From a virus, in IMG/VR virus record IMGVR_UViG_3300045988_084534, positions 32,001 through 96,000 of that record: DNA of 64,000 nt; one strand, written 5' to 3'. Numbering within the stretch: position 1 is the first letter of the stretch; every line of letters starts with the position of its first letter. Shown piece after piece: positions 932 to 63,939 of the stretch. The translations under genes and the position numbers were made by a program. Under the pieces are notes generated by a model, which saw only the letters and a list, made by a program, of their open reading frames with translations, ran no database searches and was not told the origin of the DNA.

Positions 932-1435
932 ATGATTATATGTGGTATTGATGCAAGCACCTCTTGCACTGGATGGAGCATTTTCAAAGATGACAAATTG
1001 ATTACATATGGTGCGATTAAGCCGCATGGTGAAGATTGGCGCGGCAGAGTTATGGATTTAACTATGGCGCTTTCAGAGATATTCAAAATCCATAGACCAA
1101 ATATTATATATATGGAAGATGTGCCAATGAAAAAAGGCTCTTTGACCATTGAAAAGCTAGGAGCGGTTCAAGGTGTTGTATTGGCATTATGTGCGGCATG
1201 TAAAATCAAGCCATGCTTCTTGTTGCCAAGTAAATGGCGTAGCGACCTTAATCTTTTTGATGGAACTAGAGCTGGTCTACAAAGAGATGTTCTGAAGAAA
1301 AAAGCCATAGAGATGGTGAATGAGGAATTTGGATTAAATTTAACATGGGTTGCTCCAAGTAGCAAAAAAAACGACGATGATATAGCAGAGTCCATTTTGA
1401 TTGCTTACTCACAGATAAAACAAAGGGGAGTGTGA
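932..1435 (+). CDS. RuvC-like Holliday junction resolvase
   Basis: 167 aa. N-terminal 'ICGIDASTSCTGWSIF' is a RuvC-type first catalytic Asp motif. Also 'IIYMEDV' and the C-terminal acidic 'NDDDIAESILIAY'. Confidence 0.7.
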   Translation: MIICGIDASTSCTGWSIFKDDKLITYGAIKPHGEDWRGRVMDLTMALSEIFKIHRPNIIYMEDVPMKKGSLTIEKLGAVQGVVLALCAACKIKPCFLLPSKWRSDLNLFDGTRAGLQRDVLKKKAIEMVNEEFGLNLTWVAPSSKKNDDDIAESILIAYSQIKQRGV

Positions 1436-1438
1436 TGA

Positions 1439-1730
1439 ATGGCAAAAACAAACAGTAATTACTCCATCATTGCTGATGTTGAGCTTGAGCTAAAAAATGC
1501 GCAAAAACAATTAAACGAGTTTAGGAAAGATAATAAATTAAATCTTGACTTAAATGTTAAAGGTTCTAAAAGTTTATCTGACGCAGATGGTAAAGTAAAA
1601 AAATTAGATGATTCTACCAGAGACCTAGTTTTTACATATCAGCAATTTAGACAGGTGCTAGATTCTGTTGTTGATGTTACTGGCAAAATGGTGGAACAAG
1701 TCAAGACGCTGGATGCGGCACAGACAGAGT
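1439..1730 (+). CDS. tail tape measure protein, exon 1 of 5
   Basis: ATG at 1439 right after the resolvase gene. Translation '...VKTLDAAQTE' continues in exon 2. The exon ends after U of GAGU, which can pair with GCUC (1740-1743) as a G.U-closed P1. Confidence 0.7.
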
Positions 1731-2997
1731 TAATCTTTAGCTCGCTTTCGTTGTAAAACGATTGAAAAATAACCCATTGAATTGCTGGAAACCCCTTAGA
1801 GCTGTCATGCTAAAGCGGAGAGATGAAATACGCTCAAACGTAAATGCTTGAAAAGTTGATAGATTGGGCAATCAGCAGCTAAGACCCGAATAGGGTAAAG
1901 TTCAACGACTATCCCGTAAGGGAGTACACTACAAGCGATTGGTAGTGGAAGTGGTGGGTATCCTAATAGGATAAAGATATAGTCTGGTCTTATAAGAAAT
2001 TATAAGCGCGTAAGCGAATGTAGGAGTAGCGTCCTTTTAATGTAATGATAAGACAAATATTCATAAGGAGGTGAATATGTGTATAGAAGAAAAATAGATT
2101 ATAATTTAGTAAAATCTGAGTTTGATGAGCGTGGATACGAATTATTATCTACAGAATATGTGAATAATGTTACGAAATTGCAATATGTTTGCCCAAAACA
2201 CAGAAACAAAGGTATTTTAGAAACTACATTTGCTAATTTTACAAAGGGAAAAGGATGCCCATATTGTGCAAATAGAGTAAAAAAGACACAAGAAGAATAT
2301 GAGGCAGAGTTAGCAATAAAAAAGCCAACAATTAAAGTAATTGGGAAATATATAAATCTTAAAACAAAGATAGAACATGAATGTGTTGTCTGTGGCTATC
2401 GTTGGGATGTATTGCCAGATAATATGCTACATATGTCAAACGGTTGTCCTAAATGCGGGAAAAGAGCACCATTGAATCAAAATGAGTTAATAAATAGGAT
2501 TGCTAAAATAGATGATTCTATTGAGGTTGTTGGAGAATATTATAATACTGCAACGAAAATGTCTTTTAGGTGTAAGAAATGTGGAAATGTTTGGGAGGCT
2601 AAACCAAATAATATATTGAATGGCAAAGGATGTCCAAATTGCAAATCGTCTAAAGGAGAAAAAGAGGTTGCACGCATTCTTGATGAACTCGATGTATTGT
2701 ATAAACCACAATTTAAGTTTCAGGATTGTAAAGATGAATTGCCACTTCCATTTGACTTTTATCTTCCAGATTATAATATTTGCATAGAATATGATGGTGG
2801 ACAACATTATAAGCCATGCACATTCGGTGGTATTTCTAAAGAGCAAGCAAGAGTGAATTTTGAGCTTGCTAAGAAACATGATAGAATCAAAGATGCGTAT
2901 TGCAAACAACACAACATAAAATTAGTAAGAATCCCGTATTGGGAATATAAAAATATAAGAAATATATTATCATTACATTTACATTAAACACAAAACG
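1731..2997 (+). mobile_element. group I intron (TMP intron 1) carrying a Vsr-like/zinc-ribbon endonuclease ORF
   Basis: Starts UAAUC after the exon U and ends in G (..AAAACG). GNRA hairpin cgtt-gtaa-aacg follows the guide sequence. Core 'gaattgctggaaacccc' (1779-), 'gattgggcaatcagcagc' (1862-), P7 strands 'gttcaacgactatcc' (1900-) and 'agatatagtc' (~1976-). A 9-bp stem (2039-2047 with 2971-2979) closes the ORF loop. Removal restores the TMP frame. Confidence 0.75.
2079..2987 (+). CDS. intron-encoded homing endonuclease, PD-(D/E)XK Vsr-like (EDxHD-type) with three Cys4 zinc-ribbon modules
   Basis: GTG start 6 nt after AAGGAGGTG. Three repeats of 'C..C/H...(W)...GCP.C'. The C-terminal 'PFDFYLPDYNICIEYDGGQHY...IKLVRIPY' resembles Vsr/EDxHD-type nucleases. 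Confidence 0.65.
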   Translation: MYRRKIDYNLVKSEFDERGYELLSTEYVNNVTKLQYVCPKHRNKGILETTFANFTKGKGCPYCANRVKKTQEEYEAELAIKKPTIKVIGKYINLKTKIEHECVVCGYRWDVLPDNMLHMSNGCPKCGKRAPLNQNELINRIAKIDDSIEVVGEYYNTATKMSFRCKKCGNVWEAKPNNILNGKGCPNCKSSKGEKEVARILDELDVLYKPQFKFQDCKDELPLPFDFYLPDYNICIEYDGGQHYKPCTFGGISKEQARVNFELAKKHDRIKDAYCKQHNIKLVRIPYWEYKNIRNILSLHLH

Positions 2998-3086
2998 TTA
3001 AGAAGGTCTCTGACCTGTCTGGTAAAGCATTAGACGCTTATCAAGACAAATTATCAAAAGCCGGTAAGACGGTAGGACGAACTGGT
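2998..3086 (+). CDS. tail tape measure protein, exon 2 of 5
   Basis: Reads (F)KKVSDLSGKALDAYQDKLSKAGKTVGRTG in the frame set by exon 1 (1 nt + 2 nt codon). Ends after ACUGGU, which pairs perfectly with GCCAGU (3104-3109). Confidence 0.7.
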
Positions 3087-3423
3087 AAACCAAATCGGTC
3101 TGAGCCAGTATGTACAGATGGTAAATGTGCATAAGGAACAGCCCCTAAACCCTTGAAAGCCTCAAGAGCCTTATCACTACAACATGAGGATGAGATATGC
3201 CTGAGTGTGAATGATTCATTAGTAATGAACAATTAGTGCGAAAGCAGAAAGACGATAAGGATGATTCCATGGGCGAAAGACCTAAAGAATCTGTCATAAA
3301 TAATGTATGATAAAAGGGCAGATTGGGCGCGAAGCCGTGATGAGCGGTGTGTCAACAGAATATACAGGGCGGCCCTCCAAATATATAGGGTGAAGAATTA
3401 TTCGGGAAGGGATTGAAAACCTC

Positions 3424-3452
3424 TTGACAAATTATCTAAGATGTGCTATTGT
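3424..3452 (+). promoter_or_regulatory. sigma70/sigmaA-type promoter inside TMP intron 2
   Basis: TTGACA (3424-3429), 17-nt spacer, TGc-TATTGT extended -10 (3444-3452). Followed by GAGG (3476-3479) 8 nt before the ATG at 3488. Confidence 0.55.
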
Positions 3453-3487
3453 ATAGATACAATAAATAAAGAAACGAGGTATCTATT

Positions 3488-3703
3488 ATGTTCTTGTCTG
3501 TTATGACCTTTATTATCATTGGCCCGATGCTTGTTATCTCTGGGATTGTCGCGCTGATTAAGGAGCTTTCAAACAGCGGGAAAGGCGATAATCAGAGTCA
3601 GTCGAATCAGAATAAATATAACATTCGCTATGAAACGCCGGAAGAAGAAGAGCGGCGAATCAATGAATGGGGTTATGATGATGAAAGGTGGGGCAGATTG
3701 TGA
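3488..3703 (+). CDS. intron-borne small membrane protein (one N-terminal TM helix, acidic/basic tail)
   Basis: 71 aa: 'MFLSVMTFIIIGPMLVISGIVALI' followed by a hydrophilic tail. It has its own promoter and RBS. No nuclease motif. Confidence 0.55.
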   Translation: MFLSVMTFIIIGPMLVISGIVALIKELSNSGKGDNQSQSNQNKYNIRYETPEEEERRINEWGYDDERWGRL

Positions 3704-3784
3704 TTTTTGTATATATCTGGTTTGCTATTATGATTGTATTTACCATTCTTTGTGTATTTGATTTTAGATAATTTGTAATCACTG

Positions 3785-3997
3785 TCAGAAATGATTTCTG
3801 CTGCATCGCAGTTCAGAAAATCAGGTTTCAATGATGAAGATGCGGCGACATTAGCCAAGGTTGCGGCGCAGTATCAGAACGTAGCCGACACAGCGGTATC
3901 AGCAGAAGATGCAGCAGCTTCTATTACTTCTCAGATTCGTGCATTTGGTGAAGATGCGGCATTTGCTACTACTGTAATTGATGCTTACAACGAGGTT
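3785..3997 (+). CDS. tail tape measure protein, exon 3 of 5
   Basis: SEMISAASQFRKSGFNDEDAATLAKVAAQYQNVAD...VIDAYNEV is typical of the TMP conserved core. Ends after GAGGUU, which pairs with GACCUC (4008-4013). Confidence 0.75.
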
Positions 3998-5245
3998 TAA
4001 TTTTGTAGACCTCTATAAACAGGGTGAATTGCTGGAAACCTAAACTCATATAGAGCATGGTAATCAGCAGCCAAGATTGAGATGAAATGCTCAATAAGGT
4101 TCAGAGACTATCGAAAGCATAATAAATAAAAGTGGGAATATACCACTTGAAGTGAGTAGAGTACACAGTAGTGCTAACTGTGGAAGTGCCCTGCCCTCAT
4201 ATTATATGAGGTGATGATATAGTCCATTCCTATGAGAAATCATAGGCGAGAACTCTATAATAGGTATAATATTTGAAAGAAAAGAAGTTTTGTGTATATG
4301 TGCATATGTTTCCAAATGGGAAAAGATACATTGGTATAACCAGCAAGCGCCCAAATGACAGATGGGAGAGAGGTAGTGGGTATCGTGATAGCTTACCAAT
4401 GCGTAATGCAATAAATAAATATGGATGGGATAATATAGAGCACATAATACTATTTGATGGATTGACACAAGAAGAGGCTTGCAAAAAGGAAGTTGAACTT
4501 ATAGAGAAATATAAAACAAACATTCATAAATACGGCAATCAATATGGATACAACTTAACTGATGGAGGCGAAGGCACTACTGGGCATAAGGTGTCAGAAG
4601 AAAGAAAAGAAATTATGCGCCAACTAAAATTGGGTAAAGTTGGAAAGGATTGTCCAAATTCTCGCCCGATTGTTTGTGATGGGGTTGAGTATGAGAGTTT
4701 AACTGACTTTAAGAATAAGAATAATCATCCAAAAGGCAATATCGCAGCTTGGTTAAATGGTACAGTAGGAATGCCAGAATATTGGTATAATAAACGACTA
4801 CATTATAAAGATTTGGGATTCGATGTTGTTAAATTAGCAGACAATAAAAACCGTGCTAAAAAAGTTGTTGCAGATGGAATTATGTTTGATACGTTAGAAG
4901 ATTGTGCTAATTATTTTGGAGTAGATGCACCAAGGATATGTAATTATCTAAATGGTAAAAATGCTACACCAGACAGAATCATAAATGCAGGACTTAGATA
5001 TGAAGATGAAGATGTGCATGAATTTAAAAGGCAAACTAAAAGAAGTAAGAATAAAATAAAATGTGAAATAGATGGCATTCAATTTAATACACAAGCAGAC
5101 TTAGCGAAATATATAAAAGAAAATAAGGCGACTTTATGGGCTTGGTTTGCTGGGAAAAATCCAATGCCAGAGAAATATGTAAAGAGAGGAATAAAAATTA
5201 TAGAGTAATCTCGGCTCAACTTAGCAAATTGAGTCAAATATCAAG
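3998..5245 (+). mobile_element. group I intron (TMP intron 3) carrying a GIY-YIG endonuclease ORF
   Basis: Starts UAAUU and ends in G (..AUCAAG). P10 is UUUGU/GCAAA. Core 'gaattgctggaaacc' (4026-), P7 strands 'ggttcagagactatcg' and 'gatgatatagtcc', and P9-like hairpin cctatga-gaaa-tcatagg. Confidence 0.75.
4273..5208 (+). CDS. intron-encoded GIY-YIG homing endonuclease
   Basis: 311 aa. N-terminal 'FCVYVHMFPNGKRYIGITSKRPNDRWERGSGY...NAINKYGWDNIEH' is a GIY-(10)-YIG module with the conserved R and N. Long basic C-terminal DNA-binding region. The TTG start is uncertain. Confidence 0.7.
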   Translation: MKEKKFCVYVHMFPNGKRYIGITSKRPNDRWERGSGYRDSLPMRNAINKYGWDNIEHIILFDGLTQEEACKKEVELIEKYKTNIHKYGNQYGYNLTDGGEGTTGHKVSEERKEIMRQLKLGKVGKDCPNSRPIVCDGVEYESLTDFKNKNNHPKGNIAAWLNGTVGMPEYWYNKRLHYKDLGFDVVKLADNKNRAKKVVADGIMFDTLEDCANYFGVDAPRICNYLNGKNATPDRIINAGLRYEDEDVHEFKRQTKRSKNKIKCEIDGIQFNTQADLAKYIKENKATLWAWFAGKNPMPEKYVKRGIKIIE

Positions 5246-5709
5246 GCAAACAATTTTAGTGTAGGCACTAATGATTTAGCAAGTGCCATGGAAGTTGCGT
5301 CTAGTGGGCTTGCAACATATGGGAATGAATTTTCTGAGGTACTAGGATTAGTAACAGCAGGCACAGAAATTATGCAAGGGAGATCATTGCAGGTTGCACG
5401 CGGGTTATCAACGATTGCCTCCCGCATTGCAAAAAATCAAGATGCCCTTGCAGAATATGGAATAGCAGTTCAAGATGCCAATGGCAATCTAAAGAGCACA
5501 TATGATGTTCTTGCAGAATTAAAGCCAAAATGGGATCAAATGACCGATGCTCAAAGAGTAGCATTGGGTGACACTCTTGCTGGAACCAATCAATACAAAG
5601 TCCTTGCCGCCGTACTCCAGAATTTTGAGCACGCAACAGCGGCGACTGAAACAGCCCTTAATTCCGCTGGCTCTGCGGCACAGGAAAACGCGAAGTACCT
5701 AGAGAGCCT
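5246..5709 (+). CDS. tail tape measure protein, exon 4 of 5
   Basis: ANNFSVGTNDLASAMEVASSGL...GRSLQVARGLSTIASRI...AKYLES(L) continues the TMP core. Ends after GAGCCU, which pairs with GGGUUC (5720-5725). Confidence 0.75.
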
Positions 5710-6033
5710 TAACAAAATGGGGTTCTATAAACAAGTCTAATTGCGGGAACACCCTTAGAGCCTTATCAACCAAGTTTTAATAGGAATATTAAGATGGCGA
5801 GGTTAGTGACCGAGGTATGGTAAAATTGATAAGGATTGGGCAACCAGACGCAACCAAGCGTCCAGAACGGACGAAGGCTCATCGACCATCCCTTAATATG
5901 GGAGTAGGAGAAAGTGCTAGTCTCCGAAATGGCTTGACTTGCATAAGCAAGTATGATATGGTCAGTTCTCATATGAAAATATGAGCGGTAGATGTCTACG
6001 ACTAAGATTTAGCACATCTTAGTGAACATAAAG
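5710..6033 (+). mobile_element. group I intron (TMP intron 4), ORF-less
   Basis: 324 nt. Starts UAACA and ends in G (..CAUAAAG). Core 'taattgcgggaacacccttagagccttatcaacc' (5738-), 'gattgggcaaccagacgc', and P7-like 'catcgaccatccc' / 'gtgctagtctcc'. Removal joins CU+C (Leu) and restores the frame. Confidence 0.7.
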
Positions 6034-9000
6034 CGAAGCCCGCGAACAATCCATCAAAGCAGAATTTGAGGATTTTGCAAATCGCGTATTATCCAAAGAA
6101 GTAGTAGCAGGATTTTATGATGCTACTGAAGCGGCATTACAATTTATTAACACAGATTTTGGTGCAGCCACCACGAGAATCATAGGCACAACAACGGCTA
6201 TTACAAGTCTGGTTGGTATTCTTGGCACAATGGGCGCAAAATTGGTGCTTGTTGGTAAACAGCTACAGGCGGCTGGTGCGGCTAATGGCGTTCTTGGATT
6301 CCTTACTACGCCTAAGACACTGCTTATTATAGCTGGCGTGGTAGCCGCTATTGCTGGCTTAGTTGAGGTTATTAAGTCGGTTGAAAAAGCTCAATATGAG
6401 GCAAATCATGCTTTTGAGATAGCAAATCAAAAATTATCTGAGACACAAAACGAAATTAAGTCTACTGAGGAAAATTTACAAAGTTATAAAAATTCTCTTA
6501 AAGAACTTAATGATGTGGCTGAAAAAGATAGAGGTCTTGCTTGGCAACAAGAACGTGCTGAAATTGAATTAAATATTCAAAGTACAGAGACATACTTAAA
6601 GCTGTTAGAGCAAAAAGCCAAGTTAGAAGCGCAAACGGCGTATGAATCTAAGTTGCCAACTGGTTATACACTTGCAGGCAACCTAAACGAAAATAAATAT
6701 AAGACCGAAGATTATTTTGGCGACTATTTTGCACCTGGCAATTCCCAAGTACAGTTGTCTATGGAGCAAGCTGGTGTTATAACGGCTGTGTATGACAGCG
6801 AATACGAGGCATTATCTAACATCGTTTTAGCACTTGCAAATGCTACAGATGAGCGCTATAGATACATCGAGGCAGAAGATTTAGCTCAACTTGAAGGCAA
6901 ATCAACTGAAGAACAAATTCAGATTATGACTGATTTGTTAGGTAATTTGGGAATCAAGTTGTCCGCTACCACTGAAACGGCTACGCAATCTTTTGCCGCA
7001 ATGGATAATCTTGCCAATAAATCTGGAGAACTTTCAACTAAAGAGAAAGATTTGGCGCAACGATACTTAGACCTGTATCGAAATATTGTTATCCTTGGTG
7101 TGGCAACCGATGAACAAACAAACAGCTATATTCAACTATTGGCTAGAATGTCTGCATTTGACTTGGAGACGGCTAGCACAACAGAAAAGATTAGTTGGTT
7201 AGCAAATGCTTTTGGTATAACAGCTAGTGAATCTGCAAATCTATTATATGCAACTGGTCAATTATCTCTGATTCAGGCTCAAGCTGCACGCGACATGGTA
7301 CAACTTTCTAACGGTATGTGGGCTGCTAAATCTGCGTGTAAACAACTTGACGATGGGACATGGGAATTAAAAGAAAATTTAGACGAAACCGACGATTCAG
7401 CAGAAGACTTGTCCGATTCTCTCAATGCCTATCAAAAATCCATCAAGCAAGTAACCGATGATGAAAAAGCATTTGTCAATTCGCTATTTGATATGAATGG
7501 CAATTTGACCAAAGCGGCTCAACAAGCTCTTACCGCTGATAGTGCTATGGCGAGTTATGCACAGAAAATCCTAGAGGCTCAACAAGCACAAACGCAGTCT
7601 GATTATTCTAATTTAATACTTCAAATTGGTAAGGTTGGAGAAGCAGCTTACGTTAGTAGTAATAGATTACAGTCTTTGATTGCTAGCATTCCGGGCGTTA
7701 CTTCTAGTACATGGTCTGCTGAAAATCAGGAATCTGTGATGCGCCGATTGTTTAACAAGCAAACGGGCAAGAACTGGAAACAAGACGCGGCAGCATATAG
7801 TGAATGGTCATCGAATTATTTGTTAAATTTGAGCCAAAAAAAATATGAAGAACGCTTAAAAGAGCTACAAAATCAAGCAAATGCTATATCTTCATTTGTT
7901 CCATCTACAGGTGGCGGAGGTGGCTCATCTTCTACAACATCTCAAAAATCCCCGGCTCAAATTGCGGCAGAAGCGGCAACGAAAGCGGCTAAGTATAGAC
8001 TAGATGCCTTACAAGATGAGCTTGATGCGCTCAACGATGAAAAATCGGCACTAGAAGATGAAATTCAGCGAATCCAAGATGAGGTCAAGGCTGAATATCA
8101 GGCTGAGATTGATATTCTCAACGATAAGAAAGAGGCTATCCAAGAGGCATATGAGGCATGGGAAGAAGATGCTGATGCTGTACTTGATAGACTCAAAGCA
8201 GAAAAGGACGCTATTCAAGCAGTCATTGACGCTATTGACAAAGAGAAAGAACAACTTGAAGCGGCGACCGCCTATGCTACTGAATATGCCTCTAGGCAGA
8301 TTGATGAAATTGACGCGCGGCTAGATGAGCTAGATGCCCGTGAAGCCGAAATCAATAAAAAATATGATGACGAGCTAGACAAGCTAAAAGCGACCAATAA
8401 AGAGCTGGACAAGCAAATTGAGCGCGAGAAGCTGCTACAAAATCTAGCATCTGCTAAAAATAAGAAAAAGCGGGTATATTCGGCGCAACAGGGTTATATC
8501 CTAGTTGATGATATTGCCGCAATTTCTAAAGCACAGGCAGAGCTTGATAAATTTGACCGTCAGCAAAAACAATCTCTTGAGAAACAGGAGATTGAAAATA
8601 AACGCAAACAAGAGCTGTTAGCATCTGGTGTCGAGGCTGAACGCGCGGCATTAGAAGAGCAGAAAAAGCTCTGGGAAGAATATAGTAAAAAATGGTCTAG
8701 TATTGTTTCTGACTATGAGTTCAAGCAAAATAGACTAGCTTATATTCAGCGATATGGTAAGGCTATTGAGCAACAGAACTGGCAACAGCGCAATAGAACG
8801 GTTGACCAAGCTACCAAAGAATACGCTGATATTATGGCGCGGCTATTGGCTGAACAAGAGCGGATGGCGGCTAAAGAGGCTGAAATTGCGGCTCAAGAGG
8901 CGGCAATGGACGAAGCCAGAATTGCCAATCAGAAAGCAACTGCCGCTATTGAAAAGCAAATCAGCGACCTACAAGATGAAATGGTGGCGGCTCAAGAAGC

Positions 9001-9652
9001 CAGAACTCGCAAGCAAGTAGAATCTCTAAATGCACTGGCTGATGCTATCGAGGACGCTCAAAGGCGTGTTAATCAAGCGCAGAAAGATTATGACTCCGCA
9101 CAAGAAGATGAGGGCGCATATGATGTAGATAAGCCGCGTGTTCTAAAGCAAGTGGGCGGCAAAGCTCCCGATGATGCCAAGGTAGGCGATTATATTGCTA
9201 CGGCAGATGGCATTTATCATATTACTGGCGGATACGCTGGACATTGGAAGAGTAGACGAGTGAGCGGTACTGAGGGGCGTTCCGACTTAAATAATGCGAG
9301 AGCAGCGGCTAATTGGCTAGTTAAAAATGGCTATTTGACCGCTGGCGAATTTGGCTATAGGAGCGGAACAACATCTGCCACACCGGGCTTACATATGCTC
9401 GGTGAAAATGGCCCAGAGCTAGGCGTGTTAAGTCGCGGCGATGGGGTCATCCCAGCCGATATAACCAGAAACCTGATGAACATAGGCAAGAATCCAGAGA
9501 AATTTGCAAATGCCGCTGTTGCCAGAAATGGCGGCGATATTATCATGCAAGGCGTTACTTTGGCATTCCCCAATGTGCGTGATGGCAGTGATGCCGCAAC
9601 ATTCACTAAGAATTTTGTCAACTTGGCGCATCAATATGCCTATAAGCGATAA
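6034..9652 (+). CDS. tail tape measure protein, exon 5 of 5
   Basis: Reads (L)EAREQSIKAEFEDFANRVL..., then TM segments (GAKLVLVGKQ...IIAGVVAAIAGL), long coiled-coil E/K/A/Q-rich regions, a GGGGGSSS linker and the C-terminal 'GLHMLGENGPELGVL'. The five exons total 4,677 nt, i.e. 1,558 aa plus stop. Confidence 0.8.
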
Positions 9653-16203: not shown

Positions 16204-16406
16204 ATGACAAATATTGAATTGGCAAAAAAGCACGAAGATGTAGCTAAGAAATATAAGACAGTATATATGTGGGGCTGTTTTGGTCATCCAGTGACCGAGG
16301 CGATTATCAGAGAAAAGGCGGCGCAATATCCTAGTTGGTATACAGCGGCAAAGCAGAGAGAACTAAGAAAGCTGGTCGGCAAGGGATATTTTGCATTTGA
16401 CTGTGT
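16204..16406 (+). CDS. NlpC/P60-like cysteine-peptidase lysin, exon 1 (3' boundary provisional)
   Basis: '...VYMWGCFGHPVT...GKGYFAFDCV' contains the candidate catalytic Cys. The frame stops 28 nt later, while the rest of the domain lies at 18.06-18.56 kb. The best P1 is UGUGU/GCGCA. Confidence 0.5.
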
Positions 16407-18084
16407 AAATCTCACTGACTTTAGTGCGCAATAATAGTAATGTTATTGTGTGTTTATTTGAATTGCTGGAAACCCCTTAGAGACATATCAACCACAACGT
16501 AGCTATGAAATATGGGCAAGCGTGATGGTTTGAAAATGATATAGATTGGGCAATCAGCAGCGAAGCTCCGAATAGGAGAACGTTCAACGACTATCCTGTT
16601 AGAGGGAGTACAACGCAAACGATTGGCGTTGGAAGCGGATAAGACCCTATTATATAGGGTGATGATATAGTCTCATCTCATATGAAAGTATGAGGAAAAT
16701 TGTTTGAGTTCACTTATAATACTATAAAAGCAAGGAGGTGGGTATGTGGACAAAAACAGACAACATTACAAGATGTCATTGCTTAAATGGTGTGAATCGA
16801 ATAATAGTAATTTGGTTTACGAATGGGATGAAGCAAATGAAATGGCTATGAACGAGATTGGGTCAAGTAGTGGAATAAAAGTGAAATGGATATGCTCTAG
16901 GTGTGGTTTTCATTTTGAGCAAAGACCTTCAGATAGGGTGAGGGGGCATGGTTGTCCAAAGTGTGCTAGAAAATCTCATTCAAGCGTCCCCGAAACGATA
17001 TGTTATTTGGCTATCAAGCAGTATTTTTCAGATGCGATACATGGATATAAAACCGATTGGCTTGGACGTAAAGAATTGGACATCTTTATCCCATCTATTA
17101 GTGTTGGCATTGAATATGATGGAAATTCTTGGCATAATAAATCCAGAAAACGAACAGATAATGACAAGACGTGGCTATGCGCCCAGCATAATATCTTGAT
17201 CTATCGTATAAGAGAAAACGGATGCGAACCAATGGACGACGAGTCAAATAATATTTATTACAAGCCAAGCAAACAATACAATGCTCTTAAGTATTCTATT
17301 ATAGATGTACTAATGAGGCTTGGACATAATAATGTTGCTTTTGATGACTGGGAGTCGCTTATTAATAAGTCTAAATGTGAATTTTCCAGTATTGAAAGAA
17401 GTAAATCTATTGGTGTAATAAATCCAGAATTTAGTGCAAAATGGGATTACGACAAAAATTATCCTTTAACGCCATATGATATATTGGCTCATTCCAATCA
17501 TAAAGTATGGTTAAGATGTGATAAAGGACATTTGTATAAAAGAGCGCCAAACTATTCAAATCAAAAAGAATGCCCCATATGTATAAATAAAATTGTGCTT
17601 GAGGGCTATAATGATTTGGCAACAATAAGACCAGATTTGGCGTTGGATTGGAATTATGATAGAAATGGCGAATTAAAGCCAACGGAAATAACGTTCGGTT
17701 CTAATCGACGTATTTGGTGGAAATGCCATGCTTGCGGAAACGAATTTCAATCATCTCCAAATGCTAGAAAAGATAATATGGGACATTGTTCAAAATGTGT
17801 GTTCACCAATGGCAATGAAACATTATCAAAAAACAAAGCGGTTAATAATAGTCTTGCTGAGTTTTATCCAGAAATCGCAAAAGAATGGGATTATAACAAT
17901 AATGAAAGAACGCCAGACAATGTTGCAAGGATGTCTGGATTGGAAGCGTGGTGGATTTGTTCAAACGGTCATTCTTGGAAGGCTAGTGTTCATAGTCGAA
18001 CGCATGATGGGAAAAAGTGTCCATATTGTAAACAAACTCAAACAATAAACTGCTAGGCGTAGTGAACCTAGTTGAAAGAAAATG
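16407..18084 (+). mobile_element. group I intron in the lysin gene carrying a Vsr-like/DUF4379-type endonuclease ORF (ends +/- ~20 nt)
   Basis: The core is near-identical to TMP intron 1: 'gaattgctggaaaccccttagag' (16460-), 'gattgggcaatcagcagc' (16544-), 'gttcaacgactatcc' (16582-), 'gatgatatagtct' (~16663). A 12-bp stem (16699-16710 with 18035-18046) closes the ORF loop. Ends in G (..GAAAAUG). P10 is CUUUA/UAAAG. Confidence 0.65.
16746..18056 (+). CDS. intron-encoded homing endonuclease, PD-(D/E)XK Vsr-like domain plus four zinc-ribbon (DUF4379-like) modules
   Basis: 436 aa. GTG start after AAGGAGGTGGG. Nuclease motif 'ELDIFIPSISVGIEYDGNSWHN'. Repeats 'W(D/N)Y..N....P..I...S...(V/I)WW.C..GH.(W/F)......R.....CP.C'. 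Confidence 0.65.
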   Translation: MDKNRQHYKMSLLKWCESNNSNLVYEWDEANEMAMNEIGSSSGIKVKWICSRCGFHFEQRPSDRVRGHGCPKCARKSHSSVPETICYLAIKQYFSDAIHGYKTDWLGRKELDIFIPSISVGIEYDGNSWHNKSRKRTDNDKTWLCAQHNILIYRIRENGCEPMDDESNNIYYKPSKQYNALKYSIIDVLMRLGHNNVAFDDWESLINKSKCEFSSIERSKSIGVINPEFSAKWDYDKNYPLTPYDILAHSNHKVWLRCDKGHLYKRAPNYSNQKECPICINKIVLEGYNDLATIRPDLALDWNYDRNGELKPTEITFGSNRRIWWKCHACGNEFQSSPNARKDNMGHCSKCVFTNGNETLSKNKAVNNSLAEFYPEIAKEWDYNNNERTPDNVARMSGLEAWWICSNGHSWKASVHSRTHDGKKCPYCKQTQTINC

Positions 18085-18565
18085 TAAAGGAATTTTATGG
18101 GGCTGGAATGGTAATGCTAGGTCATATACAGGCGGCGCAAGATATGCTAGTAATGGCGTACCAGATGTTAGCGCAGATGGCATGATTGGCAAATGTAAGA
18201 ATGTATCAACCACTGGCTGGGATAAGCTGGAAATTGGCGAAGGGCTATGGATGCCCGGACACTGGGGTCTATATATTGGCAATGGTCTAGCAGTAGAATG
18301 CACGCCTATTTGGAAGAATGGTGTGCAAATCACGGCTGTTGGCAACATTGGTAATAAAGCAGGATATAATAGCCGCAAATGGACTAAACATGGAAAATTA
18401 CCATATATTACCTATGTTCAGCCAGAGCCAGATACAGATGATAAGCATGAGGCGAATAAAGCCAAAGTAAAGGCGCGATTCGGCTTTACAGACAGCACTA
18501 TTAAATGGCTTGATTCTTATAAATATAATAAAGACATCATGGACAAGCTGGCTAATAAAGGCTAA
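18085..18565 (+). CDS. NlpC/P60-like cysteine-peptidase lysin, exon 2 (5' boundary provisional)
   Basis: 'KGILWGWNGNARSYTGGARYASNGVPDVSADGMI...GLWMPGHWGLYIGNGLAVECTP' contains the His-containing half of an NlpC/P60-type fold. The frame is compatible with exon 1 (GU+U gives Val). Confidence 0.5.
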
Positions 18566-53062: not shown

Positions 53063-53263
53063 TTAATCCTCCTCTAATTTTACACAATATTCTGATTCAT
53101 AAAATATACAATCTTCACAATTAAATGTATTGTAGCAACACTCTTTGCAATTCTTTGGCACATCATATCCCATATCACTATACCAATCATATTGACTATC
53201 AAGCGCAATCGGGCAATGCCCGGTCACACATTCATTTGCACAGAATCCTTTACATTTCTTCAT
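53063..53263 (-). CDS. Cys-rich small protein
   Basis: 66 aa with 11 Cys. Confidence 0.45.
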   Translation of the reverse strand: MKKCKGFCANECVTGHCPIALDSQYDWYSDMGYDVPKNCKECCYNTFNCEDCIFYESEYCVKLEED

Positions 53264-54711
53264 GCTTCTTCCACACTTTCATCTCCTGATACGTTTCAGA
53301 TAATGTCACCCATTCGCCATTTTCGTCTTTTTTCATTTTGTTTTTCTCTTGCAATACTACCCTTGCTACATCACCCTTTTGTAATTGATGGTTCGTCCAG
53401 AATTTCTTACTAGCTCTATATGTGCGTTCTGCCCCATAACAAATATTGTATAGTGTGCAATAAACCGTACCGTATCCTGTTGTCTTGACATCTAGCACTA
53501 ACCAGTCATTAGAGTCTGAATTGGGGTCACTGCAATCTACATATCCTAATAGCTCAATCTGCCATTTCAGCTTATCAGCAATAGTTGTCTTAGGCATTTT
53601 CATTGAGCGCAGGATTGATAAGATGATGCCGCGATTATCAAGCTGACTAGCTGTTTTCTCTGTTAGCTTACCAGTATACGGCGTAAGCATATCTACATTA
53701 TAACCCATTTTAGCCCATTTGTCAAGTTTAATTGTCTTACATTTTGAAAAATTTTTATATATATCAATGCCAATTAGCAATGCTTTAGCAGAACCATAGC
53801 AATCAAGATAGCCCAACTTAATCAATTTATCAAGTTGCGAATAACCGCATTTTAGATTGGGCAAATCATCAAGTAAATCGAGGAATGATGGATATGGCTT
53901 TTCTTTACCAATCAATTCTATCTCATTCTTGATTTCGTTATCTACACCCTTGATTTCATTCTTAACCTTAGATTGACCTCTGCCTGTTAAGAAATCGTTA
54001 AGACGCTTATTGGCTTCATCAATATAATATTGCTTATCAAGATAATCTGGTACTTTTACGCCTATGACGTTCTCGTTATAGATAAAGCATCTATCAGCAG
54101 TTCCAGCCATCTTTTCAGGATTGCCACCATCTTTTACCTTGAATACACCAGCATCCGATTCTCTTGTAGATGCAAATACGCGTAATACGCGCTCTCTTAA
54201 AACCGTGTCGCCGTGCATAGAATGGACATATGAACCGCCTATTTTGACAATCTTCTGAAATTCAATCAGGTCATTACAGTTGTTGATTGTATCTTCAATG
54301 GGTGTACCTGAGATGAAATAAGAATTGAGGGCTTTGTTAAGAATAGGCAGGTCATAATCAACCTTGCTCAATTTCTTTACATACGCGCCTTTGCTTTTCG
54401 GACCATCCTCTTCAACTAAGATATAGTTATTTACATCCTTTTGCCAGATAGCTGAAGCATAATCAAATTCAAGAGATAGCCGCACCCTCTTTTCCCAATC
54501 GTGCATGATTTGCTCAACAATCGGTTCATTTGCTTCATCCTCAAAATAGACATATACACCATCTGTGTTAGACTGAATCAATTTACAGTATGGCTCAATT
54601 TTCTCAATCAAGTCAAGCAACAATAGCTGACCTGTTACACAGACACACCGGCACATTCTTGGATCGTATAGTGGATTGTGTTCATCACCAGATGCCCCGT
54701 AAGTCGAATTT
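53250..54711 (-). CDS. family B DNA polymerase, exon 2
   Basis: Begins (L)NSTYGASGDEHNPLYD, completing motif B 'K...NS.YG'. Contains 'IQSNTDGVYV' (motif C-like). An upstream in-frame TAA lies 2 codons before the junction. Confidence 0.8.
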
Positions 54712-54817
54712 CCTTAATACCCATGATTTACCATTTACATGAGAGTAGACTATATCATCAAGTTCACCGCTTCCATCGTCGTGCCAATAGACGATGTACT
54801 CCCGTAAGGGATAGTCG

Positions 54818-55321
54818 TTACACTTTATTCTTATAGTAATCGGCGCATTTTCTTTGGGTTTTATTTTTCTGTTGCTCTTGAATGGTTATCCACCTGCAAT
54901 TATCAGGTTCATAATTTCCATCATTGTTTATTCTATCTATGGTTAATCCTTCACGATAACCAGATATTCTTGACCACTCGTAGAAATTTTCAAATTTATA
55001 CCATTCTTTACAAATTGAAATTCCTCTACCGCCATATCTTTGATAATGTTTGTCATTTGGATTATTTACTCTATTTTTCATAGATGCCCAAACATGATAT
55101 AGCTTGGTTTTAGATTGATTATGAGTAATAATGGCGTGATCAAATTGCAAGCAACCGCAACTTTTAACAGTTCCATTTTTAAGACAATCTGATCTAACTT
55201 TACATTTATTACCACATTCGCATACACAGTTCCAGTAACTATGCTTTTTATCCATATGCGAAAAATCTTGTACTGTCAATCTTCCAAAAACCTGTCCAGA
55301 AATATCAATTCGTTTCCCCAA
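54818..55321 (-). CDS. intron-encoded HNH homing endonuclease
   Basis: 167 aa. 'YHVWASMKNRVNNPNDKHYQRYGGRGISICKEW' and 'GLTIDRINNDGNYEPDNCRWIT' are typical of phage HNH homing endonucleases. TTG start. Confidence 0.7.
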   Translation of the reverse strand: MGKRIDISGQVFGRLTVQDFSHMDKKHSYWNCVCECGNKCKVRSDCLKNGTVKSCGCLQFDHAIITHNQSKTKLYHVWASMKNRVNNPNDKHYQRYGGRGISICKEWYKFENFYEWSRISGYREGLTIDRINNDGNYEPDNCRWITIQEQQKNKTQRKCADYYKNKV

Positions 55322-55401
55322 AACATTTACACCGACTTTCCAAAAATCTTAGCACGGGATTGCCCTAAAATAGTGGAGGGTGTTCCCCGTTAGCACTTAT
55401 T

Positions 55402-55430
55402 ATTATATCACATTTTCAATAAAATGTCAA
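55402..55430 (-). promoter_or_regulatory. consensus sigmaA-type promoter inside the polB intron
   Basis: Minus strand: TTGACA-17 nt-(TGa)TATAAT, ~80 nt upstream of the HNH ORF. Confidence 0.6.
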
Positions 55431-55490
55431 TACTTTTAAGCACACCTTTGGCAAAGTTCAATGAATTTTTTAATTGACCCCAATTCGTTA

Positions 55491-56464
55491 AGGACAATTT
55501 TATACGGCTTCTGCATTGGATTCTTTTCTTTCTTTAGCTTTAGGCGCGTATCTCTAATCTGCCTATACAAATCAGGGTCTTTAACATTACGACTGAGCAA
55601 TCCATACTCAATCATAATGGATGGGTATAGAGATGCCACGTCAGCACATAGAATCTTGCCTTTGTATTGGAAATTATCGATGCACCCATGTATGCCGCCC
55701 CAACCAATGACATGTGGAATACCGGCTATTGTGGTATATAACGATTTATCTACTCTATGATTCTTTGGGTCTTGAAACCATTCTAGCACATATCTATATT
55801 TATCCAGAATCAATGTATCAGGATAAATAATGTCAAATTCATCATCGTGCTTTTGCTTGACTGCACCTAGAATTTTAGCGACAAGCTGCGCCTTTGTTCT
55901 ATTGAAATCCTCAAGCGGTAAATTGAACGCCTCAATCAATGATGCTTGGCTATCAAATTCCTCATGCTTTGCGTCGAACACCTCAATGGTCTGCTCAACA
56001 TCATGGGTACAGTAATATATTGTCTGCTCAAGTTCATCTCTAGTCAACGGATGGTCAATAGTAAAATCAATATCAGACTCTTTGATTTGCTGACCCATAA
56101 AACCCTCAAATTGCTTAAGGCTATGGAATTTATCACTAATGTCAAAATTAAGCAAAGGATATTGCTCTTTTTGTTCCTTGGTTAAAATTTGATGCTCTTT
56201 CAATCCTTTGTTAATTAGAGCATCGTTCACTTCATATGCGTTTTTGCCACACAATAGTGATTTAAGCAACGGCGCATCATAATTTCTTGAATTATAGCCA
56301 ACCCATATATAGCCTAGCTTATTACATTTTTCATATACTTGCCGCAATCGGTCTACATCATTATGTATGATACATTTACGCTTTGAGGTGTAGTCGATTA
56401 GCACAACTAACCAATCGTATCTAAACACCTCAAAGTCATAGAACATTAGTTTATAGTTCATCAC
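55491..56464 (-). CDS. family B DNA polymerase, exon 1
   Basis: Exo motifs 'FYDFEVF', 'GYNSRNYDAPLL' and 'YCTHDVEQT'. Pol motif A 'LCADVASLYPSIM'. Ends '...PYKIV(L)' within motif B. Confidence 0.8.
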
Positions 56465-63855: not shown

Positions 63856-63939
63856 TGGTGCGGGATAGGGAACTCGAATCCCTACGCCTTGCGGCAACAG
63901 ATTTTAAGTCTATCGTGGCTGCCATTACACCAATCCCGC
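63856..63939 (-). tRNA. tRNA-Leu (anticodon UAA), type II with long variable arm, CCA encoded
   Basis: Hand-folded. Acceptor GCGGGAT/ATCCCGC. Anticodon arm ATAGA-CTTAAAA-TCTGT (anticodon TAA). Variable arm GCCGCAAGGC. T arm AGGGA-TTCGAGT-TCCCT. Discriminator A plus CCA. Confidence 0.8.

What the first reader, a model, noticed from the sequence alone, without database searches (positions are those of the whole stretch)
1439..9652. Tape measure gene split into five exons by four group I introns
Five same-strand fragments translate consecutively into one TP901/SPP1-type tape measure core. The fragments are 1439-1730, 2998-3086, 3785-3997, 5246-5709 and 6034-9652. The joined reading is ...AAQTE-F-KKVSDLSGKALDAYQDKLSKAGKTVGRTG / SEMISAASQFRKSGF...VIDAYNEV / ANNFSVGTNDLASAMEV...AKYLES-L / EAREQSIKAEFEDF...

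Each gap has group I hallmarks:
- It begins after a U that forms a G.U-closed P1 with a guide sequence ~10 nt downstream (GAGU/GCUC, ACUGGU/GCCAGU, GAGGUU/GACCUC, GAGCCU/GGGUUC).
- It ends in G.
- It contains group I core strands of the (A/C)GACUA...UAUAGUC type.
- Its removal restores the frame exactly: 292+89+213+464+3619 nt = 1,559 codons.

Introns in phage structural genes are uncommon, and four in one tail gene within ~1.4 kb of coding sequence is exceptional.
Basis: partly seen in the sequence, partly recalled or inferred. Interest (0 to 1): 0.8.

Follow-up and report, generated by a model that had tools for sequence, protein, structure and literature searches.

The report
Four self-splicing introns in tail gene
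A phage tail-length (tape measure) gene is cut into five pieces by four self-splicing group I introns, which is a record-level count for a known phenomenon; one of the introns carries a small membrane-protein gene instead of the usual homing nuclease.

Summary
Joining 1439-1730, 2998-3086, 3785-3997, 5246-5709 and 6034-9652 gives an open 1,558-codon frame. Its N-terminus matches the TP901-type tape-measure models in one unbroken stretch across all four junctions. It also aligns without gaps to uninterrupted homologues, and intron-less alleles exist at DNA level for each site.

- Introns 1 and 3 pass Rfam RF00028 (98.6 and 82.7 bits).
- Intron 4 scores 40 bits, below the 50-bit cutoff. A homologous intron at the same site shows 15 compensatory pairs.
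- Intron 2 gets no Rfam hit. It has a U.G-closed P1, a 5-bp P10, a terminal G, and helices supported by 19 compensatory pairs in 28 relatives. P3 and P4 are invariant, so they remain untested.

Introns 1 and 3 carry homing-endonuclease genes and intron 4 has no ORF. Intron 2 carries a conserved promoter and a 71-aa membrane-protein ORF under purifying selection.

Group I introns in tape-measure genes were described in 2008 (at most two per gene). The papers I could search report at most three introns per phage gene. Uncultured relatives also carry four, at nine or more sites. Verdict: real, a new member of a known kind, with an unusual cargo intron.

The parts
1439..1730 (+). TMP exon 1 (292 nt). 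ATG at 1439 with a GGGGAG ribosome-binding site upstream.
   Evidence: 31 related loci read through this junction without an intron.
1731..2997 (+). Intron 1 (1,267 nt), group I of IA2-like layout. The core lies in the first ~276 nt. The last exon base U1730 pairs with G in P1 (GAGU|UAA / UUAGCUC). The last intron base is G2997.
   Evidence: RF00028 at 98.6 bits, E 2.9e-24, model 1-253. The same site is occupied in L008, L019 and L021 (RF00028 88.6 bits).
2079..2987 (+). Intron-1 ORF (302 aa), a homing-endonuclease-like protein. It has three treble-clef zinc-finger repeats and a C-terminal Vsr-like nuclease domain. It sits in the loop of a 13-bp helix, 2039-2051 x 2967-2979.
   Evidence: Pfam CapR 1.8e-22 and DUF4379 7.9e-14. 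PHROG 559 at 1.3e-79. AlphaFold pLDDT 91.5. Foldseek match to Vsr 1cw0/1vsr with probability 1.0 and TM 0.52. Bracketing helix.
2998..3086 (+). TMP exon 2 (89 nt). No start codon or ribosome-binding site of its own.
3087..3784 (+). Intron 2 (698 nt), a divergent group I-like ribozyme with its core at 3087-3421.
- P1: 3081-3086 x 3104-3109, closed by U.G.
- P10: 3099-3103 (UCUGA) x 3785-3789 (UCAGA).
- P7: 3358-3362 (GAAUA) x 3399-3403 (UAUUC).
- P8: 3372-3376 x 3387-3391.
- Terminal base G3784.
   Evidence: No RF00028 hit. 28 distinct homologues at the same TMP site show 98.4% of cells paired, 19 pairs with compensatory change, and 0 of 500 shuffles reaching that. P1/P10. An empty site exists in L052.
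3424..3452 (+). Sigma-70-type promoter inside intron 2: TTGACA, 17 nt, TGcTATTGT (extended -10).
   Evidence: Joint-top score (10 of 12) and the only such match with a TG-extended -10 in the 5-kb scan. Conserved in the aligned relatives.
3488..3703 (+). Intron-2 cargo ORF (71 aa). It has an N-terminal transmembrane helix, an acidic linker and a C-terminal ..EWGY..RWG motif. It is not a homing endonuclease. It lies in the loop of a 16-bp helix, 3427-3442 x 3761-3776.
   Evidence: No hit passing Pfam or NCBIfam at E<=0.01. One marginal PHROG match of unknown function, phrog_26573, E 0.0044. A counterpart of 62-110 aa was found in 25 of the 27 related loci where the intron end could be located; the ORF called in L030 is different and lacks the motif. 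dN/dS is 0.11-0.42. Bracketing helix. 14 clusters with E<=0.001, about 10 of them small proteins, among 1.84 billion representatives.
3785..3997 (+). TMP exon 3 (213 nt).
   Evidence: Gene callers start homologous ORFs at the Met equivalent to 3791.
3998..5245 (+). Intron 3 (1,248 nt), group I of IA2-like layout.
- P1: GAGGUU / GACCUC, closed by U.G.
- P10: UUUGU (4002-4006) x GCAAA (5246-5250).
- Terminal base G5245.
   Evidence: RF00028 at 82.7 bits, E 1.6e-19. The same site is occupied in L008, L019, L020, L021, L026 and L036, including ORF-less forms of about 311 nt (L008, L019, L021, L026) and a 366-nt partial deletion (L036). 25 intron-less alleles.
4273..5208 (+). Intron-3 ORF (311 aa), an I-TevI-like GIY-YIG homing endonuclease. 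It sits in the loop of the P9.1-type hairpin 4252-4261 x 5197-5206.
   Evidence: I-TevI DNA-binding domain at 33.1 bits (cutoff 27). GIY-YIG at 22.3 bits (cutoff 22.6). TIGR01453 at 51 bits (cutoff 56). PHROG 314 at 9e-29. Loop position shown by alignment with ORF-less variants.
5246..5709 (+). TMP exon 4 (464 nt).
5710..6033 (+). Intron 4 (324 nt), an ORF-less group I intron.
- P1: AGAGCCU / GGGUUCU, closed by U.G.
- P7: GACCAU / AUGGUC.
- Terminal base G6033.
   Evidence: RF00028 at 40 bits, below the 50-bit cutoff, with E 5.5e-9 in a 351-nt search and model 1-253. A homologous intron at the same site in L052 shows 15 compensatory pairs. 22 intron-less alleles.
6034..9652 (+). TMP exon 5 (3,619 nt including the stop). 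It encodes transmembrane, coiled-coil and C-terminal regions.

Best explanation
The window comes from an uncultured siphophage of about 90-100 kb that infects Clostridia and is distantly SPbeta-like. Its 1,558-aa TP901-type tape-measure gene is interrupted by four group I introns within the first 1,058 coding nucleotides.

Mechanism (inferred from the established group I pathway):
- On the late transcript each intron folds.
- Its internal guide sequence pairs with the end of the upstream exon (P1, with a U.G wobble at the cleavage site).
- A free guanosine attacks there.
- The freed exon 3'-OH then attacks after the intron's terminal G. In introns 2 and 3 the downstream exon is held by a 5-bp P10.

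All four introns must be removed from one RNA to give full-length protein. Unspliced RNA meets a stop 0-15 codons into each intron.

How the introns persist or spread:
- Introns 1 and 3 carry homing endonucleases, a zinc-finger/Vsr-like type and a GIY-YIG I-TevI-like type. These presumably cut intron-less alleles during co-infection and copy the intron in.
- Intron 4 is an ORF-less derivative; a relative at the same site has an ORF.
- Intron 2 has no endonuclease. It carries its own promoter and a small membrane-protein gene.

In the three ORF-bearing introns the ORF lies in the loop of a long peripheral hairpin. This places the 3' splice site next to the core.

Shown: exact junctions, ribozyme cores, presence/absence polymorphism, and ORF identities. 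Inferred: splicing itself, homing, and expression of the cargo.
For: Junctions:
- Open spliced frame.
- Single-stretch matches to PF10145 and TIGR01760 across all junctions.
- Gap-free alignment to uninterrupted homologues at each junction.
- DNA-level empty sites: J1 in 31 loci, J3 in 25, J4 in 22, and J2 in L052.
- The closest cultured phages (Enterocloster PMBT24 and the CB473/CB457 phages) have the region as a single tblastn piece over aa 1-393.

Ribozymes:
- RF00028 scores of 98.6, 82.7 and 40 bits.
- Intron 4 against L052 shows 15 compensatory pairs.
- Intron 2 shows 98.4% pairing and 19 compensatory pairs, whereas slid controls give 0-3.
- P1, P10 and the terminal G.
- A related ribozyme at another TMP site (L030, L041) has the canonical GACUA/UAGUC and shares the P4-P6 region with intron 2 (nhmmer E 3.7e-14; RF00028 37 bits).

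Mobility signature:
- The same sites are occupied or empty in different relatives.
- ORF-less and partly deleted versions of intron 3 exist.
- The intron-2 core is 80-95% identical across relatives, against 59-80% for the flanking exons.

Endonucleases.
Against: - There is no RNA-level evidence.
- Intron 2 is not recognised by RF00028, and intron 4 falls below its gathering score.
- The P3 and P4 strands of intron 2 are invariant in all relatives. The core pseudoknot is therefore untested, and two P4 registers are possible.
- No P10 of 3 bp or more was found for intron 4.
- In three relatives in the structure alignment (L001, L006, L029), and in L022 by the alignment, the base before intron 2 is C rather than U.
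- The GIY-YIG and TIGR01453 scores sit just under the curated cutoffs.
Confidence: 0.88

Rival explanations
1. Introns 1, 3 and 4 are group I introns, but the 698-nt insert at 3087-3784 is something else. It could be a degenerate ex-intron that needs a protein or trans-acting helper, or a different kind of structured RNA element carrying a promoter-driven gene.
For: - No RF00028 hit even in a 731-nt search at E<=10.
- P3 and P4 are invariant and so unverified.
- There is no P7.1/P7.2, the P7 sequence is unusual (GAAUA/UAUUC), and there is no endonuclease.
- Some relatives have C-G rather than U.G at the cleavage site.
Against: - A continuous guide, UCUGA-GCCAGU, is complementary to the ligated exons, with the U.G wobble exactly at the junction.
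- P1 covaries with the exon: ACUGGU/GCCAGU against ACCGGU/GCCGGU.
- The terminal G is present in every relative where the intron end could be located.
- The helix order fits the group I topology.
- The J8/7-P7' strand GAAGAAUUAUUC parallels GAAGAAAUAGUC in a related canonical intron.
- The TMP frame is restored exactly.
Confidence: 0.08
2. The gene is not spliced. The fragments are either translated separately and assemble as a split tape measure, or the gene is a decaying pseudogene in a defective prophage.
For: Public gene calls treat the fragments as separate ORFs, for example P0001-P0010 starting at the Met of exon 3. The source is a metagenomic sequence of unknown viability.
Against: - Exons 2, 4 and 5 lack start codons or ribosome-binding sites at their 5' ends, and exons 2 and 5 begin mid-codon.
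- Junctions are precise to the nucleotide and flanked by intact ribozyme cores.
- Dozens of independent, near-genome-length viral contigs keep the same arrangement with intact frames.
- Exons remain highly conserved against uninterrupted homologues.
Confidence: 0.03
3. The interruptions are an assembly artefact: homing-endonuclease cassettes chimerically assembled into the gene.
For: None specific. The window is of unknown provenance.
Against: The same introns occur at the same sites in many independent contigs from different samples and sources, including IMG/VR, ENA and Logan.
Confidence: 0.01

Closest known systems
TMP-IVS1, -IVS2 and -IVS3 group I introns in tape-measure genes of Bacillus cereus-group prophages (Tourasse & Kolsto 2008, PMC2504315)
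   Same: - Group I (IA1/IA2) introns inside the conserved part of a siphophage tape-measure gene.
- Several insertion sites.
- Presence/absence varies between related phages.
- P1/P10 is adapted to each site.
- Some copies lack a complete endonuclease gene.
   Different: - That work reports three sites and, as I read the text, at most two introns in one gene (E33L).
- Here there are four in one gene and at least nine sites across the clade.
- The host lineage differs (Clostridia gut phages).
- One intron here carries a promoter-driven membrane-protein gene.
Multi-intron phage genes: Staphylococcus phage Twort orf142 (three introns; Landthaler & Shub 1999, seen as a reference in PMC11878797), and Bastillevirinae DNA polymerase and terminase genes (up to three; PMC11878797)
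   Same: Several self-splicing group I introns, with or without endonuclease ORFs, packed into one phage gene.
   Different: Those reports give a maximum of three per gene. Here there are four, in a tail structural gene rather than a replication, packaging or unknown gene.
Phage T4 td intron with I-TevI
   Same: Intron 3 is a group I intron with a GIY-YIG endonuclease that has an I-TevI-type DNA-binding domain.
   Different: The ORF here sits in a P9.1-type terminal hairpin downstream of the core. From my own knowledge, I-TevI lies in the P6 loop. Sequence similarity is only at family level, and the scores are near the cutoffs.
Streptococcus thermophilus phage lysin-gene intron and its deletion derivatives (Foley et al. 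2000, seen as a reference in PMC11878797)
   Same: At the intron-3 site, relatives show a series running from the full ORF through partial ORF remnants to an ORF-less form.
   Different: A different gene and a different phage group.
Vsr-like 'EDxHD' homing endonucleases such as I-Bth0305I of Bacillus phage 0305phi8-36 (recalled from memory, not checked here)
   Same: The intron-1 ORF has a C-terminal domain with a Vsr-like fold. Its invariant residues are D226, E237, D239, H243 and D268.
   Different: No sequence-level match to any PDB chain. The N-terminal DNA-binding part is made of CapR/DUF4379 zinc-finger repeats. Membership of the family was not established.

Membership tests
Group I intron (Rfam RF00028) | Covariance-model score at or above the gathering threshold (50 bits) | tested here: inconclusive
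   - Intron 1: 98.6 bits, met.
- Intron 3: 82.7 bits, met.
- Intron 4: 40 bits, full-length model, E 5.5e-9 in a 351-nt search, not met.
- Intron 2: no hit, not met.
Group I intron | The 5' splice site follows a U that forms a U.G wobble in P1 with an internal guide sequence | tested here: met
   Met for all four introns. For intron 2, P1 covaries with the exon in relatives.
Group I intron | The last intron nucleotide is G (omega-G) | tested here: met
   G2997, G3784, G5245 and G6033. For intron 2, a G precedes UCAGA in every relative where the intron end could be located.
Group I intron | P10 pairing between the guide sequence and the start of the 3' exon (common but not universal) | tested here: inconclusive
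   - Intron 2: UCUGA x UCAGA, 5 bp, contiguous with P1.
- Intron 3: UUUGU x GCAAA, 5 bp (read).
- Intron 1: a candidate that overlaps the P1 extension.
- Intron 4: none of 3 bp or more found.
Group I intron | Conserved core helices P3-P9, including the P3/P7 pseudoknot | tested here: inconclusive
   - Introns 1 and 3: aligned to the full model.
- Intron 4: P4-P7.2 supported by 15 compensatory pairs, and P3, P8 and P9 covary by eye.
- Intron 2: P1, P2, the P5 extension, P6, P7 and P8 supported by 19 compensatory pairs. P3 and P4 never vary, so they are neither supported nor refuted.
Group I intron | Precise absence from homologous genes (an empty site with continuous reading frame) | tested here: met
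Group I intron | Guanosine-dependent self-splicing of the RNA | not testable with these tools
   Needs in-vitro transcription and splicing, or cDNA.
TP901-type phage tape measure protein (PF10145 / TIGR01760) | A profile match above the curated cutoff, continuous over the core domain | tested here: met
   Obtained only after conceptual splicing. PF10145: 80.3 bits (cutoff 33.2), profile 2-201 of 201. TIGR01760: 91.2 bits (cutoff 28.8).
GIY-YIG homing endonuclease, I-TevI type (intron-3 ORF) | A GIY-YIG catalytic domain plus an I-TevI DNA-binding domain | tested here: inconclusive
   - PF20987: 33.1 bits, above the cutoff of 27.
- PF01541: 22.3 bits, just under the cutoff of 22.6.
- TIGR01453: 51 bits, under the cutoff of 56.
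- PHROG 314 'homing endonuclease': 9e-29.
Vsr-like / PD-(D/E)XK-type homing endonuclease (intron-1 ORF) | A nuclease fold with conserved acidic and His catalytic residues | tested here: inconclusive
   - Model pLDDT 91.5.
- Foldseek match to Vsr 1cw0/1vsr: probability 1.0, TM 0.51-0.52, but E 0.015.
- Invariant residues D226, E237, D239, H243 and D268.
- No Pfam nuclease domain above cutoff.
- PHROG 559 at 1.3e-79, annotated 'HNH endonuclease'.

The most novel reading that the evidence does not exclude
Intron 2 represents a distinct, endonuclease-less group I lineage that curated RNA models miss and that has become a gene carrier. Inside the tape-measure gene it holds a self-contained expression cassette: a conserved extended -10 promoter, a ribosome-binding site, and a 62-110-aa membrane protein with a C-terminal [DE]WG[YFL] motif. 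The cassette is under purifying selection and could be expressed independently of late transcription.

A speculative function is superinfection exclusion or another membrane-level activity linked to tape-measure-mediated DNA entry. That could explain why an intron with no homing enzyme is fixed across a diverged phage clade.
Probability: 0.4. Interest if true: 0.7.

Novelty: new member of a known kind. Interest (0 to 1): 0.55.

Why it matters
- **Annotation.** Standard gene callers split this tape-measure gene into fragments, and public protein sets contain dozens of such truncated 'proteins' from relatives.
- **Hot spot.** The conserved N-terminal tape-measure domain is an intron hot spot. 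At least nine insertion sites fall within about 260 codons across one phage clade, and up to four are occupied at once. This makes it a natural system for studying homing-site choice, intron gain and loss, and how much splicing burden a low-copy structural gene tolerates.
- **Detection limits.** Covariance-model screening alone misses half of the introns here at the curated threshold.
- **Cargo.** The promoter-plus-membrane-protein cargo in intron 2, if functional, would be an unusual non-endonuclease passenger in a phage group I intron.

Tried and rejected
- Megablast of the 8.2-kb region against GenBank phages found no close relative, only a 124-nt intron-core match.
- Rfam at permissive E-values on intron 2 gave only chance-level snoRNA/sRNA hits.
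- My first intron-2 model paired GCCC (3141-3144) with GGGC (3367-3370) as P3, and CCCUU with AAGGG as P4. Comparison with a related canonical intron in L030 and L041 instead favours P3 = CCCU (3150-3153) x AGGG (3366-3369). It leaves P4 ambiguous between GCC/GGC and GCCC (3141-3144) x GGGC (3316-3319). All these strands are invariant, so covariation cannot decide.
- A second pattern scan from the 3' half of intron 2 returned the same contigs, so no more diverged members were gained.
- A pattern scan with the intron-4 P4 motif found only unrelated group I introns in other genes.
- A PDB sequence search with the intron-1 ORF gave only spurious TRPV6 hits.
- A profile search with the cargo protein over 1.84 billion representatives found only about 10 small relatives, with no annotation.
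- RNAalifold pairs the 5' exon end GAGCCUU with AAGGCUC near J6/7 of intron 4. I did not pursue this.

Full report
**1. The observation**

Each proposed intron begins after a U and ends in G. The intron lengths are 1,267, 698, 1,248 and 324 nt.

On unspliced RNA the frame meets a stop within 0-15 codons of each 5' splice site.

The first 560 residues of the spliced product give one continuous match to Pfam PF10145 (aa 114-311; profile 2-201 of 201; 80.3 bits). They also give one to NCBIfam TIGR01760 (aa 83-369; 91.2 bits). Together these cover all four junctions, at aa 97/98, 127, 198 and 352/353.

**2. Comparison with homologues**

A search with the spliced N-terminus found 91 relatives. BLASTP shows that many database 'proteins' start exactly at the Met just after junction 2. 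Others end within a few residues of junction 3, junction 4, or other fixed positions. This is what gene callers produce when they meet an intron.

Homologues that do run through a junction align without a gap and with near-identical local sequence:
- TEFKKVSDLSG at J1
- ARTGSEMVEAA at J2
- DAYNEVANNFSVGTNDL at J3
- YMESLEAKxxALKAEFEDF at J4

At DNA level, intron-less alleles exist in 31 loci for J1, 25 for J3 and 22 for J4. For J2 there is one in L052, reading GCACGAACTACC|AGTCAAATGGTA.

The closest cultured phages are Enterocloster phages PMBT24, CB473P1-3 and CB457P1-2. They encode the region as a single tblastn piece over aa 1-393 at about 35% identity. SPbeta YomI is the next group.

Neighbouring genes in related contigs hit SPbeta virion families YonB, YomX, YomW and YomU. 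The window is therefore from an uncultured, distantly SPbeta-like siphophage of Clostridia.

**3. Introns 1, 3 and 4**

- Rfam RF00028 matches 1721-2006 (98.6 bits) and 3988-4246 (82.7 bits) at its gathering threshold. The model's P1 places the exon's last U exactly at 1730 and 3997.
- Intron 4 was missed in the 64-kb and 5-kb scans. It scores 40 bits over the full model in a 351-nt scan (E 5.5e-9), again with the U at 5709. That is below the curated 50-bit cutoff.
- I therefore looked for independent support for intron 4. Contig L052 has a homologous intron at the same site (GGAGAGCCT|TAACAAAATGGGG). RNAalifold on the pair finds 15 base pairs kept through changes on both sides, in P4, P5, P6 and P7.1. 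P3, P8 and P9 also covary by eye.
- The L052 copy continues into an ORF, whereas the window copy has none.

**4. Intron 2**

No Rfam family matches 3087-3784, even at E<=10 in a 731-nt scan. The first ~335 nt are nevertheless strongly conserved in 37 IMG/VR contigs plus two ENA contigs, always at the same tape-measure site.

The guide-sequence logic is textbook:
- Exon ACUGGU (3081-3086) pairs with GCCAGU (3104-3109), with U3086.G3104 at the cleavage site.
- The five bases immediately 5' of that, UCUGA (3099-3103), pair with the first five bases of exon 3, UCAGA.
- P1 covaries with the exon in relatives: ACUGGU/GCCAGU against ACCGGU/GCCGGU.

I wrote a group I-type structure (P1, P2, P3, P4, an extended P5 domain, P6/P6a, P7, P8) and counted it on 28 distinct sequences:
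- 98.4% of cells pair.
- 19 pairs change on both sides, and 0 of 500 shuffles reach this.
- Slid controls give 0-3 such pairs.
- P7 (GAAUA/UAUUC) changes to GAGUA/UACUC in six sequences.
- P3 and P4 never vary, so the core pseudoknot is untested.

A related ribozyme sits at another tape-measure site, near aa 251, in L030 and L041. It shares the P4-P6 region with intron 2 (nhmmer E 3.7e-14). It has the canonical J6/7-P7 (AAACGACUAU) and J8/7-P7' (GAAGAAAUAGUC), and it scores 37 bits on RF00028. By homology this favours P3 = CCCU (3150-3153) x AGGG (3366-3369) in intron 2, and it leaves the P4 register ambiguous.

My reading is that intron 2 is a divergent group I intron lacking P7.1/P7.2. I put about 85-90% on that. 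Membership of the curated family was tested and not met, while the functional features I could test were met.

Three relatives in the structure alignment (L001, L006, L029) have C instead of U before the intron. L022 does too, by the alignment.

**5. What the introns carry**

- **Intron 1** encodes a 302-aa protein with three CapR/DUF4379 treble-clef zinc-finger repeats. It matches PHROG 559 at 1.3e-79. The family is very large, with 3,479 database hits at E<=1e-10. The C-terminal domain of its AlphaFold model (pLDDT 91.5) resembles Vsr endonuclease. The Foldseek probability is 1.0 and the TM-score 0.52, although the E-value is weak at 0.015.
- **Intron 3** encodes an I-TevI-like GIY-YIG protein, with scores straddling the curated cutoffs.
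- **Intron 4** has no credible ORF.
- **Intron 2** has no endonuclease. It carries a sigma-70-type promoter with a TG-extended -10 (3424-3452). This is the joint-top-scoring match and the only 10/12 match with a TG in the 5-kb scan, and it is conserved in relatives. A ribosome-binding site and a 71-aa ORF follow.

The intron-2 product has an N-terminal transmembrane helix and a C-terminal EWGY...RWG motif. Twenty-five of the 27 related loci where the intron end could be located have a 62-110-aa counterpart with the same architecture, although the sequences diverge strongly. Pairwise dN/dS is 0.11-0.42. It has no hit passing Pfam or NCBIfam at E<=0.01, only a marginal PHROG match of unknown function (E 0.0044), and only about ten related small-protein clusters among 1.84 billion representatives.

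**6. Architecture**

In all three ORF-bearing introns a long helix brackets the ORF:
- 13 bp at 2039-2051 x 2967-2979
- 16 bp at 3427-3442 x 3761-3776
- 10 bp at 4252-4261 x 5197-5206

For intron 3, alignment with ORF-less (about 311 nt in L008, L019, L021, L026) and partly deleted (L036) versions shows that the ORF occupies the loop of a P9.1-type hairpin. The last codons of the endonuclease form the 3' strand of the stem. This explains how a 3' splice site about 1 kb downstream is brought back to the core.

**7. Population picture**

Related contigs show a patchwork:
- J1 is occupied in L008, L019, L021, L033 and L034.
- J3 is occupied in L008, L019, L020, L021, L026 and L036.
- J4 is occupied in L052.
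- Further group I introns occur after aa 232, after aa 246 (RF00028 63-64.5 bits), and near aa 251.
- One occurs after aa 311 in L009, with P1 CUGGU/GCCAG.
- One occurs 7 nt downstream of J4 in L053, with P1 GAAGCU/GGCUUC.

That makes at least nine sites in about 260 codons. L008, L019 and L021 also have four introns, at J1, J2, J3 and aa 246.

The intron-2 core is 80-95% identical between the window and relatives, while the flanking exons are 59-80% identical. This fits either horizontal spread or strong constraint on the ribozyme.

**8. What is known**

Tourasse and Kolsto (2008, PMC2504315) described IA1/IA2 group I introns at three sites in tape-measure genes of Bacillus cereus-group prophages. 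They reported site-specific P1/P10 adaptation and endonuclease-less copies. As I read their text, at most two introns occur in one gene.

Three introns per gene are reported for Twort orf142 and for Bastillevirinae polymerase and terminase genes (PMC11878797). My searches of the held literature found no phage gene with four. That library is incomplete, so this is an absence of evidence only.

**9. Verdict**

The finding is a new member of a known kind. Its points of interest are:
- the number of introns;
- the density of insertion sites across the clade;
- the failure of the standard model on two of the four introns;
- the cargo cassette in intron 2.

Splicing, homing and cargo expression are inferred, not shown.

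Noticed in passing
window 16204-18565 (+): exon 16204-16406, intron about 16407-18084, exon about 18085-18565: A fifth group I intron (RF00028 93.9 bits at 16397-16694) splits a putative cell-wall hydrolase-like gene right after an FAFDCV motif. It carries a 436-aa ORF (16746-18056) with four DUF4379 zinc-finger repeats, akin to the intron-1 endonuclease. The 3' splice site at 18084 is inferred from frame, a terminal G, and a CUUUA x UAAAG P10. Other in-frame G positions are possible.
   Followed up: partly
window 53250-56464 (-): A family-B-like DNA polymerase gene appears split into 56464-55436 and 54656-53250. A 167-aa ORF (55321-54818, with an NNDGNYEPDNCRW motif and no Pfam hit) lies between them. 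It is followed by the group I-like strands CGACUAUC (54817) and GAUAUAGUC (54756). RF00028 scores only 14.9 bits there. This is probably a sixth intron, with the ORF interrupting the core.
   Followed up: partly
window 3424-3703 (+), and the same element in L001-L039: Intron 2 carries a conserved promoter and a small membrane-protein gene instead of a homing endonuclease. The ORF region is far more diverged between relatives than the ribozyme, yet dN/dS is 0.1-0.4.
   Followed up: partly
L008, L019, L021, L036, L012, L042, L030, L041, L009, L053 (tape-measure genes of relatives): Additional group I intron sites that are unoccupied in the window: after aa 232, 246, about 251, 311, and 7 nt downstream of J4. 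L008, L019 and L021 carry four introns at a partly different set of sites.
   Followed up: partly
L001:7419/7420, L006, L022, L029: In these relatives the base before intron 2 is C (Gly codon GGC). This gives a C-G pair instead of the near-universal U.G at the cleavage site, and the guide's last base changes from U to A. Whether these copies still splice is unknown.
   Followed up: no
window 5704-5710 with 5874-5880: RNAalifold pairs the end of exon 4 plus the first intron base (GAGCCUU) with AAGGCUC at the P6/J6-7 boundary of intron 4. The pairing is conserved in L052. It could be an alternative structure competing with P1.
   Followed up: no
window 932-1435 (+): A RuvC-like Holliday-junction resolvase gene (Pfam RuvC, 28 bits) lies directly upstream of the tape-measure gene. 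The same position holds a weak RuvC hit in relative L053, which is unusual inside a tail-gene block.
   Followed up: no
window 63859-63939 (-): A tRNA gene with a long variable arm (RF00005, 49.4 bits). The anticodon loop reads CUUAAAA, so it is probably tRNA-Leu(UAA).
   Followed up: no
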